A stretch of 64,000 nt of DNA. Source: Candidatus Latescibacterota bacterium. GTDB lineage: Bacteria > Latescibacterota > UBA2968 > GCA-2709665. The first letter of the stretch is position 1. Each line of letters opens with the position of its first letter. The stretch spans positions 3,904,001 through 3,968,000 of the forward strand of contig CBDCOX010000002.1 in assembly GCA_965219995.1 (NCBI GenBank), given 5' to 3'. The position numbers and the translations under genes were made by a program. Shown one piece after another: positions 24,641-26,805 of this stretch. The notes under the pieces are model-generated. The model was not told where the DNA came from, ran no database searches, and worked only from the letters and a program-made list of their open reading frames with translations.

Positions 24641-25870
24641 TCATCTGGAGTATGTCCGGGCTTCAATCGCCTCTACGGCTGCCTGATTCACGTAGCTCCG
24701 GTCGTGAAATCGAGCGGCGTATTCGATCGGCGTCACATCTCGATATTTTCGTACAGCTTCATCAGCGGTAAACTTCAGGCCCTTTCGGATGGACGCCCGA
24801 TGGGACGGATCCGCTCCTCTGTCGAGGAGCTCGATAGTTACTCTGTCTTCCTTCCGGCCTTTCTTGACGACACAGTTGAACAGCGGGGTGTGCCCCCCAA
24901 AGCCGTCGGCATCGACGTCGGCCGCCGCGTTCGGGTCCGCGCCGTGTTCGATTGCCCAATCGAAGACCTCATCCTCGTCAAATTCGATCGCCATGTGCAG
25001 GAGCGTAGTCCCGTCCAGCGGTGTACCGTGGAGACCGGTGTCGTCGCCGACACGGAAGTCAGGAGGATAGATGTCGTCATACCCAAACCTGCGGGAAATA
25101 AGTTCGGGGTCCCTGTCAAGATGACGCTCCAGCAAGTCGATCCGCCCAAAATGGAAAGCCAGAGCGGGGGTTTCCGGGAATTCCACGCCACTTTCGGCAA
25201 GGATTTTCAAACACTCGTGTTTTCCGACCGGGTTGCGGCTGTATGTCTCCAGGACCATCGCGGCCGGCGCGGTGAAGTCCCCATCTGCGTCGCAAAGTTC
25301 CCCGCCCAGATCCAGAACCATCTGCAGTCCCTTGCTGTTCAGGGTTTCACAGGCGCCCATCGCGACGCCGCGTTCTACTCGTGCGCCTTTCTTAACCAGC
25401 GCATGAGCGGTTTCGGCATTTCCCTGAAGGATGGCTCGCCCGAAAGCGTGTTGGATCTCGGGACTGCCCAGATCGGCCAGCATCTCCACAATTCCGGTCT
25501 TGCCCAGTTCAGCGGCAAACCCCATCGCGGCGCCCCAGTGTGAACCCCGCCCGCGAGCTTCTTCTGTCAGGAGTTCGGGGTGCTTCCTGACCAGCTCACG
25601 AACGGTTTCCAGGTCTTCGCGAGACACGGCTGCACACAGTCTGGCCGCAAGCAGCAATCTGGGCCAGCTTGCATATCGATACATACGCGCGAGCACGAGT
25701 TGTGCGTCGGCCAGCCTGGCGCTTTCGGGGGAGACGTCCCGTGGATGCAGACTCTCAAAGGCGGAAACGGCCTCGGGATCGCCCGATCGATAGGCGGCCA
25801 GAAGCGATTTTGCCCGCTTCCTGAGGTTCTCGATGTTGGGATTGACGGGAAGACTTTGACGGCGGGGCAT
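24641..25870 (-). CDS. Ankyrin repeat protein with N-terminal 'LP..PN.E.LRKRAK.LL...LADAQ..LAR.Y...SW..L' domain
   Basis: GTTLLHMAIEF, GADPNA, GHTPLF, LLDRGADP ankyrin motifs; GGAGG RBS. Confidence 0.85.
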   Translation of the reverse strand: MPRRQSLPVNPNIENLRKRAKSLLAAYRSGDPEAVSAFESLHPRDVSPESARLADAQLVLARMYRYASWPRLLLAARLCAAVSREDLETVRELVRKHPELLTEEARGRGSHWGAAMGFAAELGKTGIVEMLADLGSPEIQHAFGRAILQGNAETAHALVKKGARVERGVAMGACETLNSKGLQMVLDLGGELCDADGDFTAPAAMVLETYSRNPVGKHECLKILAESGVEFPETPALAFHFGRIDLLERHLDRDPELISRRFGYDDIYPPDFRVGDDTGLHGTPLDGTTLLHMAIEFDEDEVFDWAIEHGADPNAAADVDADGFGGHTPLFNCVVKKGRKEDRVTIELLDRGADPSHRASIRKGLKFTADEAVRKYRDVTPIEYAARFHDRSYVNQAAVEAIEARTYSR

Positions 25871-26005
25871 AGCAGCCTCCTCTCGCAGAGTCGCCCGGCG
25901 TCCGCATCTTCGGGCAGAAAGAAGGTGCTATCGGAACTTCAGGATCTGGTGAGGTGGGTGGGCTTAGCCCTTTCCGCGGACCGGAGGCTCCCTTTCGAGC
26001 ACGGC
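25871..26005 (-). ncRNA. Candidate structured cis-regulatory leader RNA of the ankyrin gene
   Basis: AGCCUCC (25983-25989) is complementary to the SD-containing GGAGGCU (25874-25880); GUCCGC/GCGGAC long-range helix; GGGC-UAA-GCCC hairpin. Confidence 0.5.
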
Positions 26006-26009
26006 AGTT

Positions 26010-26038
26010 AAAATAACCATAACCGGGCCCCATGGCAA
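26010..26038 (-). promoter_or_regulatory. sigma70-type promoter for the ankyrin gene
   Basis: TTGCCA-17 bp-TATTTT on the minus strand. Confidence 0.55.
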
Positions 26039-26189
26039 GCCGGCTCTTTGAGTATCTCCGGCAGGAAGGTTAAACGTACGCTGTTTCGGCGGCTTCCAGA
26101 TAATCAAGGCCTCGCGGGCATTCTAACACCTGGTGCAAGGACGCCGCCAGGAATAACGACGGCGTACACGAAGGAAGCGCCCGGCTGTT

Positions 26190-26468
26190 TTATACCAACG
26201 CGATGCGCAGTTGCCGGCCGAGAGCCCTTGCAGCGCGGTCCAGTGTCCGCAGGGTTACCGAAGCATTGGAGGCGTCGAGCAAACGGTCCAGCGCCGATCG
26301 GCTGGTTTGCATACGCCTCGCCATCTCGGACTTGGACAGCTTGTGTTCCTTCATGAACTGGCTCAACTGAAACGCAATCACGCGTTTTGCTGCCGTCGCT
26401 TCTGATTCACTGAGGAGACCCTCTTCCTCGAGGAACTCATCGAAATTGCTGCCGAAGTGTTTTCTCAT
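26190..26468 (-). CDS. XRE/HigA-type antitoxin (orphan)
   Basis: H.GS.FDEFLEEEG...KRVIAFQL...SKSEMARRMQTSRS.LDRLLD..N.SVTL.TL..AA.ALG; GGAGG RBS; no toxin upstream. Confidence 0.88.
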   Translation of the reverse strand: MRKHFGSNFDEFLEEEGLLSESEATAAKRVIAFQLSQFMKEHKLSKSEMARRMQTSRSALDRLLDASNASVTLRTLDRAARALGRQLRIALV

Positions 26469-26518
26469 CTCGCCTCCCATAACGTCATGAGCCCAACTTG
26501 TCACACGAAGAGTGTTTC

Positions 26519-26805
26519 TCACAGGAAGTCGCGCAATGCCAGCAGGTTTTCGATCTCCGCGAATGGCTGACCGTCGCCGGGTTCTCTGCCTTGCCGATTG
26601 ACCCAGATTCCCCTGATTCCGGCCTCTTGCGCTCCGGCGATGTCTTTATTGAGATTGTCTCCGACCATCAATGTCTGGTCGGGGCCGGCATCCGCAAGCC
26701 GGAGCGCATGCTCGAAAAAACGGGGATCCTGAGCGCGACGGGTTTTTCGAGAACGATCGTCTCGTCAAGATCGAACAGGATCGTTCTCACTGCGTCCTGG
26801 CTCAT
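26519..26805 (-). pseudogene. HAD-family hydrolase remnant (internal deletion plus frameshift)
   Basis: MSQDAVRTILFDLDET (motif I) is joined out of frame to DPRFFEHAL...MVGDNLNKDIAGAQEAGIRGIWVNR (motifs III/IV). Confidence 0.8.

What the first reader, a model, noticed from the sequence alone, without database searches (positions are those of the whole stretch)
25871..26038. Candidate novel cis-regulatory RNA sequestering the SD of an ankyrin gene
Seen (minus strand): TTGCCA-17-TATTTT defines a ~135-nt leader. Its 5' AGCCUCC can pair perfectly with GGAGGCU covering the Shine-Dalgarno. The adjacent GUCCGC pairs with GCGGAC ~75 nt downstream and encloses a GGGC-UAA-GCCC hairpin and a single-stranded CACCCACCUCACC tract. 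An alternative GCCCG/CGGGC helix competes. It matches no riboswitch consensus I know. Inference: a translational switch, either a riboswitch or an autoregulatory site for the protein's basic N-terminal helical domain, forming an RNA-plus-protein module.
Basis: partly seen in the sequence, partly recalled or inferred. Interest (0 to 1): 0.78.

Follow-up and report, generated by a model that had tools for sequence, protein, structure and literature searches.

The report
New leader RNA tied to protein domain
The stretch before this ankyrin gene is one copy of a widespread, undescribed folded leader RNA that hides the ribosome-binding site and is found, across many bacterial phyla, almost only in front of genes whose proteins begin with one particular uncharacterised domain.

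Summary
Window 26005-25868 (- strand) is one member of a structured 5' leader RNA class with six covarying pairings. These are two hairpins, two long-range (pseudoknot-type) pairings, and a two-part helix that buries the Shine-Dalgarno sequence and AUG.

A covariance model finds it in 69 of 132 genomes of the window's class, up to 15 copies per genome. It also appears in records labelled Acidobacteriota, Verrucomicrobiota, Chloroflexota, Planctomycetota, Poribacteria and others. No Rfam 15 family matches.

It almost always sits directly before genes whose product starts with one ~80-residue helical domain that has no Pfam model of its own. That domain is fused to ankyrin, FliG/FliM-like, Clp_N, LRR, sigma-54 AAA+, glyoxalase or peroxiredoxin parts. 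Counts are 45 of 45 RNA hits in five genomes, 79 of 79 protein-first loci and 73 of 75 evaluable RNA-first metagenome loci.

Its AGCCUCC anti-SD helix is not conserved; the true anti-SD is AUAGCACCUUCUUU.

The effector is unknown. I favour autogenous control by the N-terminal domain (about 0.4) over a small-ligand riboswitch (about 0.3).

The parts
26033..26038 (-). -35-like hexamer TTGCCA
   Evidence: One search found one site against 0.2 expected. TTGACA/TTGCCA-type boxes are seen at the same relative place in orthologues and in many other leaders.
26010..26015 (-). -10-like hexamer TATTTT, 17 nt after the -35 hexamer
   Evidence: In 118 distinct leaders, -10-like boxes peak 9-10 nt before model position 1. 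72 of 118 have one in the 30 nt before the model, against 43 of 118 in a control window. The start site itself is not shown.
25868..26005 (-). The leader RNA motif as matched by covariance model R1, ending with the start codon
   Evidence: G000:C2:3929868-3930005 (-), 163.5 bits, E 1.1e-37. This is the only strong copy in the genome.
25987..26000 (-). H1 hairpin, GCUC (26000-25997) / GAGC (25990-25987), loop GAAAGG
   Evidence: Covaries (GCUC/GAGC, GCGC/GCGC, GCGU/ACGC, GCUU/AAGC and others). 2 of 4 pairs in A3 and 3 of 4 in A6 change on both sides.
25991..25993 (-). PKa 5' side: AGG in the H1 loop
   Evidence: Pairs with CCN after H2. In A3 the variable pair is A-U 25, G-C 9, C-G 1, A.C 4 and A.G 1 of 40. 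In A6 it is A-U 66, G-C 4, G-U 3. These columns were not paired in the model. In the window itself this pair is A.C.
25976..25981 (-). H3 5' strand GUCCGC
   Evidence: Pairs with GCGGAC. 99.6% of cells are paired in A3 and 99.3% in A6, with G-C to A-U and other double changes. It was not part of the model's structure.
25960..25970 (-). H2 hairpin GGGC-UAA-GCCC
   Evidence: 4 of 4 pairs change on both sides in A3, with 100% of cells paired. 3 of 4 do so in A6.
25956..25958 (-). PKa 3' side: CCC (CCN) just after H2
25932..25955 (-).
   Evidence: Length and sequence vary among members (alignments printed).
25918..25931 (-). H4 5' strand: the conserved anti-SD, AUAGCACCUUCUUU
   Evidence: Pairs with SD plus AUG. 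12 of 14 pairs change on both sides in A3 and 13 of 14 in A6. It is part of the single-sequence MFE.
25912..25916 (-).
   Evidence: 4 of 5 pairs change on both sides in both alignments, e.g. GCCCG/CGGGC to GCCUG/CAGGC.
25900..25905 (-). H3 3' strand GCGGAC, lying in the loop of H5
25892..25896 (-). H5 3' strand GGGCG
25869..25883 (-). H4 3' strand AGAGGAGGCUGCUAU. It holds the SD GGAGG (25880-25876) and the first two bases of the AUG (25870-25868).
25616..25870 (-). Coding region for the ~85-residue N-terminal helical domain (LPxxPxLExLKKQAKxLL...DAQLVxARxYxFxSW)
   Evidence: E 1.8e-29 to the domain profile. AF2 model with pLDDT 91. No Pfam or NCBIfam hit.
24641..25870 (-). Whole gene, 409 aa: N-terminal domain plus ankyrin repeats
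   Evidence: Ank_2 45.3 bits against cut-off 27.3, residues 282-357.

Best explanation
Window 26005-25868 (-) is one member of a previously undescribed, widespread class of structured 5' leader RNA.

From 5' to 3' the RNA has:
- a hairpin (H1) whose loop NGG pairs with CCN downstream (PKa);
- the strand GUCCGC (H3);
- a small hairpin (H2);
- a variable linker;
- a conserved anti-SD (CUUCUUU-type) that abuts a hairpin (H5). The loop of H5 carries GCGGAC, the partner of GUCCGC;
- the SD and AUG, which pair with the anti-SD (H4).

Folded, the RNA therefore buries the ribosome-binding site, so it should hold translation of the downstream gene off until the fold is opened or fails to form.

The class is dedicated to genes whose products begin with one ~80-residue, mildly basic helical domain of unknown function.

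My committed reading is autogenous control. The N-terminal domain, made first and present in every regulated protein, binds the pseudoknotted core of its own (and its paralogues') leader and stabilises the SD-occluding fold. The RNA and the domain would then travel together as a self-regulating cassette that has been joined to many different C-terminal domains.

What is shown: the RNA family, its pairings, and its co-occurrence with the domain (about 0.95 that these are real). What is inferred: translational repression by SD occlusion (about 0.8) and the identity of the effector (about 0.4). The confidence given for this explanation is that of the whole statement, effector included.
For: Structure
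- On 40 diverse copies from the window's class (A3), 95.0% of cells are paired. 25 of 36 pairs change on both sides (128 cells), 0 of 500 shuffles reach this, and slid controls give 47-53% paired.
- On 78 distinct copies from other phyla (A6), 93.9% of cells are paired and 28 of 36 pairs change on both sides (235 cells).
- H3 and PKa were not in the model's structure and still pair in 99.3-99.6% and 94-96.5% of cells respectively.
- G-U pairs are frequent, so the structure is specific to this strand, which points to RNA rather than DNA.
- The single-sequence MFE of the window leader already contains H1, H2, H4 and H5.

Position
- The model ends at the start codon in nearly all copies.
- -10-like boxes peak 9-10 nt before its 5' end.

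Link to the domain
- 45 of 45 RNA hits in genomes G017, G038, G042, G121 and G125 lie upstream of a domain hit on the same strand. The gap is -2 to 53 nt for 43 of them, and 146 and 384 nt for the other two.
- 79 of 79 loci fetched by the protein hold the RNA. 71 have it directly at the start codon and 8 have it in front of an inserted first gene of the same operon.
- 73 of 80 metagenome loci fetched by a 25-nt RNA pattern alone have the domain within 700 nt downstream. Five of the rest are cut by contig ends and 2 are 5'-half remnants.
- At genome level in the class, 66 genomes have both, 3 have the RNA only, 9 have the domain only and 54 have neither, of 132.
- C-terminal parts differ. Of 19 downstream proteins, 10 are Ank, 4 FliG-type, 1 FliM, 2 sigma-54 AAA+, 1 glyoxalase and 1 AhpC/TSA. 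Of 138 representatives, 41 are Ank, 12 Clp_N, and 4 each FliG_C, FliM and LRR.
- The domain is at residues 1-90 in nearly all of the 150 best of 10,133 hits.
- Its net charge is +3.3 per 85 residues, against -1.8 for the rest of the same proteins.
Against: - No binding was or could be tested.
- The domain has no recognisable nucleic-acid-binding fold. Foldseek's best E is 0.79 and VIA-align's best Z is 4.1. Its excess of basic residues is modest.
- The RNA core is far more conserved (long identical runs across phyla) than the domain (about 30-50% identity). That fits an invariant partner such as a small molecule or the ribosome better than a fast-evolving protein.
- Domain genes without the RNA exist. 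Three of about 49 in five genomes lack it, as does L016, and 9 genomes have the domain only.
- One copy (L059) precedes a FliG-like protein that keeps only about 12 residues of the domain.
- In 8 loci the first regulated gene lacks the domain altogether.
- Near-exclusive association with one gene family is also known for orphan riboswitch candidates (yjdF, nadA and pnuC abstracts in the listing).
- Whether H3 coexists with H4/H5 or competes with them is unresolved.
- The start site is not confirmed.
Confidence: 0.4

Rival explanations
1. A small-molecule or ion riboswitch with an unknown ligand. The double-pseudoknot core is the aptamer and H4 is the expression platform. Proteins carrying the N-terminal domain are the cell's responders to that ligand, perhaps because the domain senses it too.
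For: - Sequence is highly conserved in junctions and in both long-range pairings across at least 8 labelled phyla.
- The architecture has two subdomains joined by a variable linker and a bridging pairing.
- The SD is embedded in the conserved fold.
- The RNA is more conserved than the protein domain.
- Orphan candidates tied almost exclusively to one gene family exist (yjdF, nadA and pnuC abstracts, listing).
- 8 loci put a gene without the domain first behind the leader.
Against: - No transporter, biosynthetic or degradative gene family is among the regulated genes. The only thing they share is the domain.
- 45 of 45 and 73 of 75 associations with a protein domain, across many architectures, is stricter than I know for validated riboswitch classes (that comparison is recalled, not tested).
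- No ligand can be proposed from the gene context.
Confidence: 0.3
2. A binding site for another trans-acting factor shared by all carriers, such as a global RNA-binding protein, the ribosome or S1, or a small RNA. The N-terminal domain would be linked only functionally, as one regulon of proteins that use the same docking domain.
For: - There are up to 15 copies per genome with a near-identical core, as expected for a regulon operator.
- GGA-type motifs occur both in the H1 loop and in the SD.
- The domain has no RNA-binding fold match.
Against: - No conserved neighbouring regulator gene was seen or looked for systematically.
- The factor would have to be conserved across Acidobacteriota, Chloroflexota, Planctomycetota and the other labelled phyla, and yet act only on this gene set.
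- The elaborate fold exceeds what known simple protein or sRNA sites need (that comparison is recalled).
Confidence: 0.15
3. A constitutive, non-switching leader. It would be a structured element that tunes translation or mRNA stability, or a thermometer-like device, inherited together with the domain simply because promoter, leader and first exon-like module duplicate as one unit.
For: - The leader and the domain are adjacent and would be copied together.
- Tandem paralogues exist (G125:C73, G121:C95).
- No alternative conserved 'ON' pairing was found.
Against: - Purifying selection has kept six pairings and long invariant single-stranded runs while the linked protein diverged to about 30% identity across phyla.
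- Two long-range pairings are not needed for a plain SD hairpin.
Confidence: 0.1
4. One reading: the 5' AGCCUCC (25989-25983) is the anti-SD that pairs with GGAGGCU.
For: There is perfect 7-bp complementarity in the window and its close orthologues.
Against: - 0 of 7 pairs show a compensatory change, and 4 of 7 depart only by unpaired cells in the diverged orthologues.
- AGC of that segment is the covarying 3' arm of H1.
- A different, covarying anti-SD exists (H4).
Confidence: 0.03

Closest known systems
Orphan riboswitch candidates tied to one gene family (yjdF, nadA, pnuC motifs)
   Same: A conserved, covarying 5' UTR structure found almost only before one kind of gene, with the function of the gene product giving little help. 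Basis: abstracts of PMC4793209, PMC6859854 and PMC7749635 as shown in the listing; the papers were not read further.
   Different: Here the association is with an N-terminal domain shared by many otherwise unrelated proteins, not with one orthologous gene. No Rfam model matches, so it is not a member of any of them.
Autogenous ribosomal-protein leaders, e.g. the rpsF leader bound by S6:S18
   Same: A structured leader, widely distributed across phyla, sits in the mRNA that encodes the protein proposed to bind it, and control acts at the ribosome-binding site. Basis: abstract of PMC3895269 in the listing; the rest is recalled.
   Different: - The proposed binder is an uncharacterised domain with no known RNA target to mimic.
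- There are many paralogous copies per genome.
- Binding is untested.
ZTP (pfl motif) riboswitch architecture
   Same: Two subdomains are joined by a variable-length linker and held together by a long-range pairing. This description of ZTP is recalled from memory, not from a call.
   Different: - There is no match to RF01750 or any other Rfam model.
- The conserved sequences are different.
- There is a second loop-to-strand pairing (PKa).
- The platform is SD occlusion rather than a terminator.
Pseudoknotted translational riboswitches in which the SD is part of the fold (preQ1 classes, SAM-II/SAM-SAH)
   Same: SD accessibility is set by a pseudoknotted 5' UTR. Basis: abstracts of PMC10622847, PMC9410914 and PMC10516623 in the listing.
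   Different: - This RNA is much larger (about 125-145 nt).
- The SD pairs with a dedicated anti-SD that resembles the 3' tail of 16S rRNA (that resemblance is recalled), not with the aptamer core.
- No Rfam match.
RNA thermometers (ROSE, fourU)
   Same: The SD is paired in a leader hairpin (recalled).
   Different: Those are simple hairpins before heat-shock or virulence genes. This RNA has six conserved pairings, two of them long-range, and no Rfam match.

Membership tests
Any family of Rfam 15 (4227 models) | Covariance-model match on the leader, at or near the family's gathering score | tested here: not met
   - Window 25500-26600 at E<=10: 3 weak hits, none on the leader.
- 18 loci of the class at E<=1: 0 hits.
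- 14 loci of other phyla at E<=1: 5 hits, none on the motif's place and strand.
Riboswitch (as a kind) | Conserved structured domain with covariation | tested here: met
   25-28 of 36 pairs change on both sides, and 0 of 500 shuffles reach the observed values.
Riboswitch (as a kind) | Expression platform overlapping the ribosome-binding site or a terminator | tested here: met
   H4 pairs the SD and AUG with a conserved anti-SD. No terminator-like site was found. This rests on sequence only, with no functional test.
Riboswitch (as a kind) | Direct, selective binding of a small ligand | not testable with these tools
   Needs in-line probing, ITC or similar.
Riboswitch (as a kind) | Regulated genes share a metabolic or transport logic | tested here: not met
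   Downstream proteins share only the N-terminal domain. The C-terminal parts are Ank, FliG/FliM-like, Clp_N, LRR, sigma-54 AAA+, glyoxalase and AhpC/TSA.
Autogenous protein-binding leader (r-protein-leader type) | The leader lies in the mRNA that encodes the binding protein | tested here: met
   Shown as co-occurrence only: 45 of 45, 79 of 79, 73 of 75 evaluable.
Autogenous protein-binding leader (r-protein-leader type) | The encoded protein binds the leader and represses translation | not testable with these tools
   No RNA-protein tool was available. EMSA, toeprint and reporter assays are needed.
Autogenous protein-binding leader (r-protein-leader type) | The protein has a recognisable RNA-binding fold | tested here: inconclusive
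   The AF2 model (pLDDT 91.3) has no PDB match at E<=0.001 or Z>=5. Net charge is +3.3 per 85 residues.
ZTP riboswitch (pfl motif) | Match to the family model and its conserved nucleotides | tested here: not met
Pfam PF20066 (Glyoxalase_8), for the N-terminal domain | Whole-protein score above the gathering cut-off (23.7 bits) | tested here: not met
   - P0001: no hit.
- L065 protein: 16.5 bits, on model positions 4-28 only.
- P0040: 23.8 bits, but no stretch passes on its own.
- 4 of 138 representatives hit at E<=1e-4.

The N-terminal end of that model appears to contain this domain.
Ankyrin-repeat protein (C-terminal part of the window's gene) | Pfam Ank models above cut-off | tested here: met
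   Ank_2 45.3 bits against 27.3, Ank 37.6 against 21.1, residues 282-357.

The most novel reading that the evidence does not exclude
The ~80-residue N-terminal domain is a new, portable RNA-recognition domain. With its leader it forms a self-contained autoregulatory cassette, consisting of promoter-proximal pseudoknotted RNA plus the protein module that reads it. Evolution has grafted this cassette onto more than ten kinds of C-terminal domain in at least eight bacterial phyla, so that every protein built on it limits its own and its paralogues' synthesis at the ribosome-binding site.
Probability: 0.35. Interest if true: 0.9.

Novelty: new variant of a known kind. Interest (0 to 1): 0.85.

Why it matters
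- It adds a large, phylogenetically broad class of structured leader RNA that Rfam 15 does not hold. It occurs in poorly studied phyla (Latescibacterota, Poribacteria, Acidobacteriota, Verrucomicrobiota, Chloroflexota, Planctomycetota).
- It gives the first functional handle on a protein domain with about 10,000 sequence clusters and no annotation.
- A cis-regulatory RNA that follows a protein domain rather than a gene or pathway is unusual. If the domain reads the RNA, this is a modular RNA-protein regulatory cassette and possibly a new RNA-binding fold. If a small ligand does, it is a new orphan riboswitch whose regulon is defined by a sensing or docking domain.
- Either way the hypothesis is directly testable with a roughly 140-nt RNA and a roughly 100-residue protein.

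Tried and rejected
- **Single-sequence folding** gave no signal (z 0.21), so it cannot support or refute the structure.
- **RNAalifold on 13 orthologues** added a GCGG/CCGC(U) pairing into the coding region. I dropped it as specific to the close orthologues.
- **A crude all-against-all covariation scan** recovered the known helices but was otherwise noise from relatedness.
- **A regular-expression parse of the H1 loop** picked the wrong GG in some rows and was discarded in favour of column counts.
- **Fold searches** of the domain model found nothing usable, and the ESM Atlas gave only unnamed clusters with scores of 0.87 or less. None of this shows that the fold is new.
- **RNA-library contigs.** Five RNA runs hold part of the stretch. 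Four of them, from two studies, were laid and have contigs that join leader and coding region: 25522-25942, 25729-26047, 25718-25979 and 25710-26106.
  - Contigs show neither strand nor ends, DNA carry-over is possible, and two contigs run past the predicted -35 box.
  - So neither the start site nor expression is established.
- **Literature.** Six full-text searches listed no paper that ties a bacterial RNA motif to ankyrin genes or to this domain.
  - I saw listings and abstract beginnings only and opened no paper.
The supplements of the large motif surveys (for example PMC2864571, PMC8632094, PMC11109978) could list this motif under another name. 'Not described' therefore rests on Rfam 15 and these searches only.
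- **Not done:** Complex prediction was not used (it takes no RNA). No second covariance model was built. The window's phylum was not searched beyond its class.
Full report
**What is at the site**

On the minus strand, a 409-residue gene (24641-25870) follows a 320-nt gap after a small XRE-type HTH gene. Pfam sees only ankyrin repeats at residues 282-357, and NCBIfam sees nothing.

TTGCCA-17-TATTTT is the only sigma-70-like site in 1.2 kb, against 0.2 expected.

Folded alone, the leader is no more stable than its shuffles (z 0.21). Rfam 15 has nothing on it even at E<=10. Taken by itself, the observation could have been chance in a G+C-rich genome.

**Orthologues**

A six-frame search of 61 related genomes found full-length orthologues. 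In 13 of 14 of them, including four with only 52-66% protein identity, the upstream 140 nt are conserved far better than expected for a spacer. The fourteenth (L012) lacks the element and carries N's.

The alignment (A2) shows five pairings:
- **H1:** GCUC/GAGC.
- **H2:** GGGC/GCCC.
- **H3:** GUCCGC/GCGGAC, with three sequences changed G-C to A-U.
- **H5:** GCCCG/CGGGC.
- **H4:** a long helix between AUAGCACCUUCUUU and AGAGGAGGCUGCUAU, that is, the SD plus the AUG.

Part of it is simply the 3' arm of H1.

**A family, not a single locus**

A covariance model of these 13 sequences (R1) finds one copy in the window's genome. It finds 46 hits in 21 of 53 genomes of the order and 218 hits in 69 of 132 genomes of the class, up to 15 per genome.

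I counted pairs on two alignments:
- **Forty diverse hits aligned to the model (A3):** 95.0% of cells are paired, and 25 of 36 pairs change on both sides. 0 of 500 shuffles reach this, and slid controls give about 50% paired.
- **78 distinct copies from other phyla (A6):** 93.9% of cells are paired, and 28 of 36 pairs change on both sides.

These alignments were fitted to H1, H2, H4 and H5, which favours those helices. H3 was not in the model, yet it pairs in more than 99% of cells with several double changes.

Inspection turned up a sixth pairing, PKa. The last three loop bases of H1 (NGG) pair with CCN just after H2. The variable pair is A-U 25, G-C 9, C-G 1, A.C 4 and A.G 1 of 40 in A3. The four A.C rows are the window itself and its close orthologues.

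H3's 3' strand lies in the loop of H5, and H4's two strands flank H5. So H3 crosses H4 and H5. The data cannot say whether all of them form at once (a double pseudoknot) or whether H3 alternates with H4/H5.

-10-like boxes peak 9-10 nt before the model's first position: 72 of 118 leaders have one, against 43 of 118 in a control window. The motif therefore sits at the very 5' end of the predicted mRNA and ends at the start codon.

**The link to a protein domain**

The downstream proteins differ in length and C-terminal content. Of 19 examined, 10 are Ank, 4 FliG-type, 1 FliM, 2 sigma-54 AAA+, 1 glyoxalase and 1 AhpC/TSA. All of them begin with the same ~80 residues, LPxxPxLExLKKQAKxLL...HPR...LxDAQLVIAREYGFxSWxxLK.

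I tested the link in three ways.
1. **RNA first, five genomes.**
   - 45 of 45 R1 hits lie upstream of a hit to the domain profile on the same strand. For 43 the gap is -2 to 53 nt.
   - Conversely, of about 49 domain genes only four lacked an R1 hit. One of those four has a diverged copy (23.5 bits) and three have none.
2. **Protein first, other phyla.**
   - 79 loci were fetched from reference genomes by the peptide pattern. Their records are titled Latescibacterota, Poribacteria, Acidobacteriota/Terriglobia, Verrucomicrobiota, Chloroflexota, Planctomycetota, Gemmatimonadota and Abditibacteriaceae.
   - All 79 hold the RNA. In 71 it ends at the domain's start codon.
   - In the other 8 it stands about 1 kb upstream, before a 336-residue ORF without the domain that has been inserted between leader and domain gene. 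The 3' part of an older leader is still in front of the domain gene.
3. **RNA first, metagenomes.**
   - 80 loci were fetched by a 25-nt pattern of the RNA core alone.
   - 73 have the domain within 700 nt downstream, 5 are cut by the contig end, and 2 are remnants with only the 5' half of the motif.

At genome level in the class, 66 genomes have both, 3 have the RNA only, 9 have the domain only and 54 have neither. These genomes are kin, so no statistical test is claimed.

Exceptions run in both directions:
- L016 has a domain gene with no leader.
- L059 has a leader before a FliG-like protein that keeps only the first dozen residues of the domain.
- The window's genome has a second, weak domain-like ORF without the RNA.

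**The domain**

A profile search of 1.84 billion representatives gives 10,133 hits at E<=1e-3 and 5,332 at E<=1e-10. In the 150 best it sits almost always at residues 1-90. Of 138 representatives, 41 carry Ank, 12 Clp_N, 4 each FliG_C, FliM and LRR, and others occur once. Many carry nothing that Pfam knows.

There is no Pfam model for the domain itself. Only the N-terminal end of PF20066 touches it weakly.

The AlphaFold model is confident (pLDDT 91.3, five helices) but finds no solved relative. The domain is mildly basic, at +3.3 per 85 residues against -1.8 for the rest of the same proteins.

**Mechanism**

What is shown is an RNA whose conserved fold includes pairing of the SD and AUG. That pairing is part of the thermodynamic optimum of the window's own sequence. 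I infer that the folded leader keeps translation off.

For the effector I commit to the protein's own N-terminal domain, at about 0.4. The RNA tracks that domain rather than any pathway, the domain is the first part of every regulated protein to be made, and it is the only basic part.

The strongest argument against this is that the RNA core is much better conserved than the domain, which favours an invariant ligand. Orphan riboswitch candidates tied to a single gene family are also on record (listing). I therefore give the small-ligand riboswitch about 0.3, another trans factor about 0.15 and a non-switching element about 0.1.

**Novelty**

No Rfam 15 model matches the window or 32 other loci. 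Six literature searches listed nothing relevant.

In kind, it is a structured cis-regulatory leader, which is a known kind. The variant is that it is bound to a protein domain across many architectures and phyla.

**Expression**

RNA-library contigs of two studies join leader and coding region but prove neither strand nor start, and two of them run past the predicted promoter.

**Verdict**

The site is one copy of a large, apparently undescribed RNA class. Function and effector remain to be tested.

Noticed in passing
L095, L096, L097, L101, L104, L105, L107, L111 (RNA at about 320-460; domain gene at 1501): A 336-339-residue ORF without the N-terminal domain sits between a complete leader and the domain gene. 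The 3' part of an older leader (H5 3' arm plus SD) is still in front of the domain gene. It looks like a gene captured under the leader's control.
   Followed up: partly
L059 (G049:C49), RNA 1501-1631, ORF 1629-2690: The leader is followed by a FliG_N/FliG_M-like protein that keeps only about the first 12 residues of the N-terminal domain.
   Followed up: partly
L161 and L191 (metagenome contigs): The 5' half of the motif (H1, H3 5' strand, H2, ACC) is present without the anti-SD, H5, GCGGAC or SD and without a domain gene. These are probably remnants.
   Followed up: partly
Alignment A7 consensus; 'stretches' column: Many proteins carry a second, degenerate copy of the domain motif (GD..A...P...DA....AR..GF..W..L) right after the first. 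G121:C61:36259-36774 has two profile hits in one 323-residue frame.
   Followed up: no
G000:C2:1541619-1541963 (+), outside the window: There is a second, weak match to the N-terminal-domain profile (E 3e-4 and 1.2e-3) in a 450-residue frame of the window's own genome, with no leader hit.
   Followed up: no
window 26190-26522 (-): The upstream gene encodes a 110-residue XRE/Cro-type HTH protein (HTH_26 33.1 bits) with a weak, sub-threshold likeness to HigA antitoxins (16.9 bits against 47.7). No link to the leader was seen.
   Followed up: no
window 26069-26155 (-): A sub-threshold Rfam hit to Trp_leader (21.6 bits against 41, E 0.13) lies upstream of the predicted promoter. It is probably chance.
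   Followed up: no
L016 1266-1604 (G019): A domain gene with no leader. The DNA just upstream of its start gives an odd 112-residue reverse-strand ORF. I did not check what lies there, such as an RNA gene.
   Followed up: no
window 25931-25917 (-): The anti-SD segment CACCUUCUUUCU closely resembles the 3' tail of bacterial 16S rRNA. The rRNA sequence is recalled from memory, not taken from a call.
   Followed up: no
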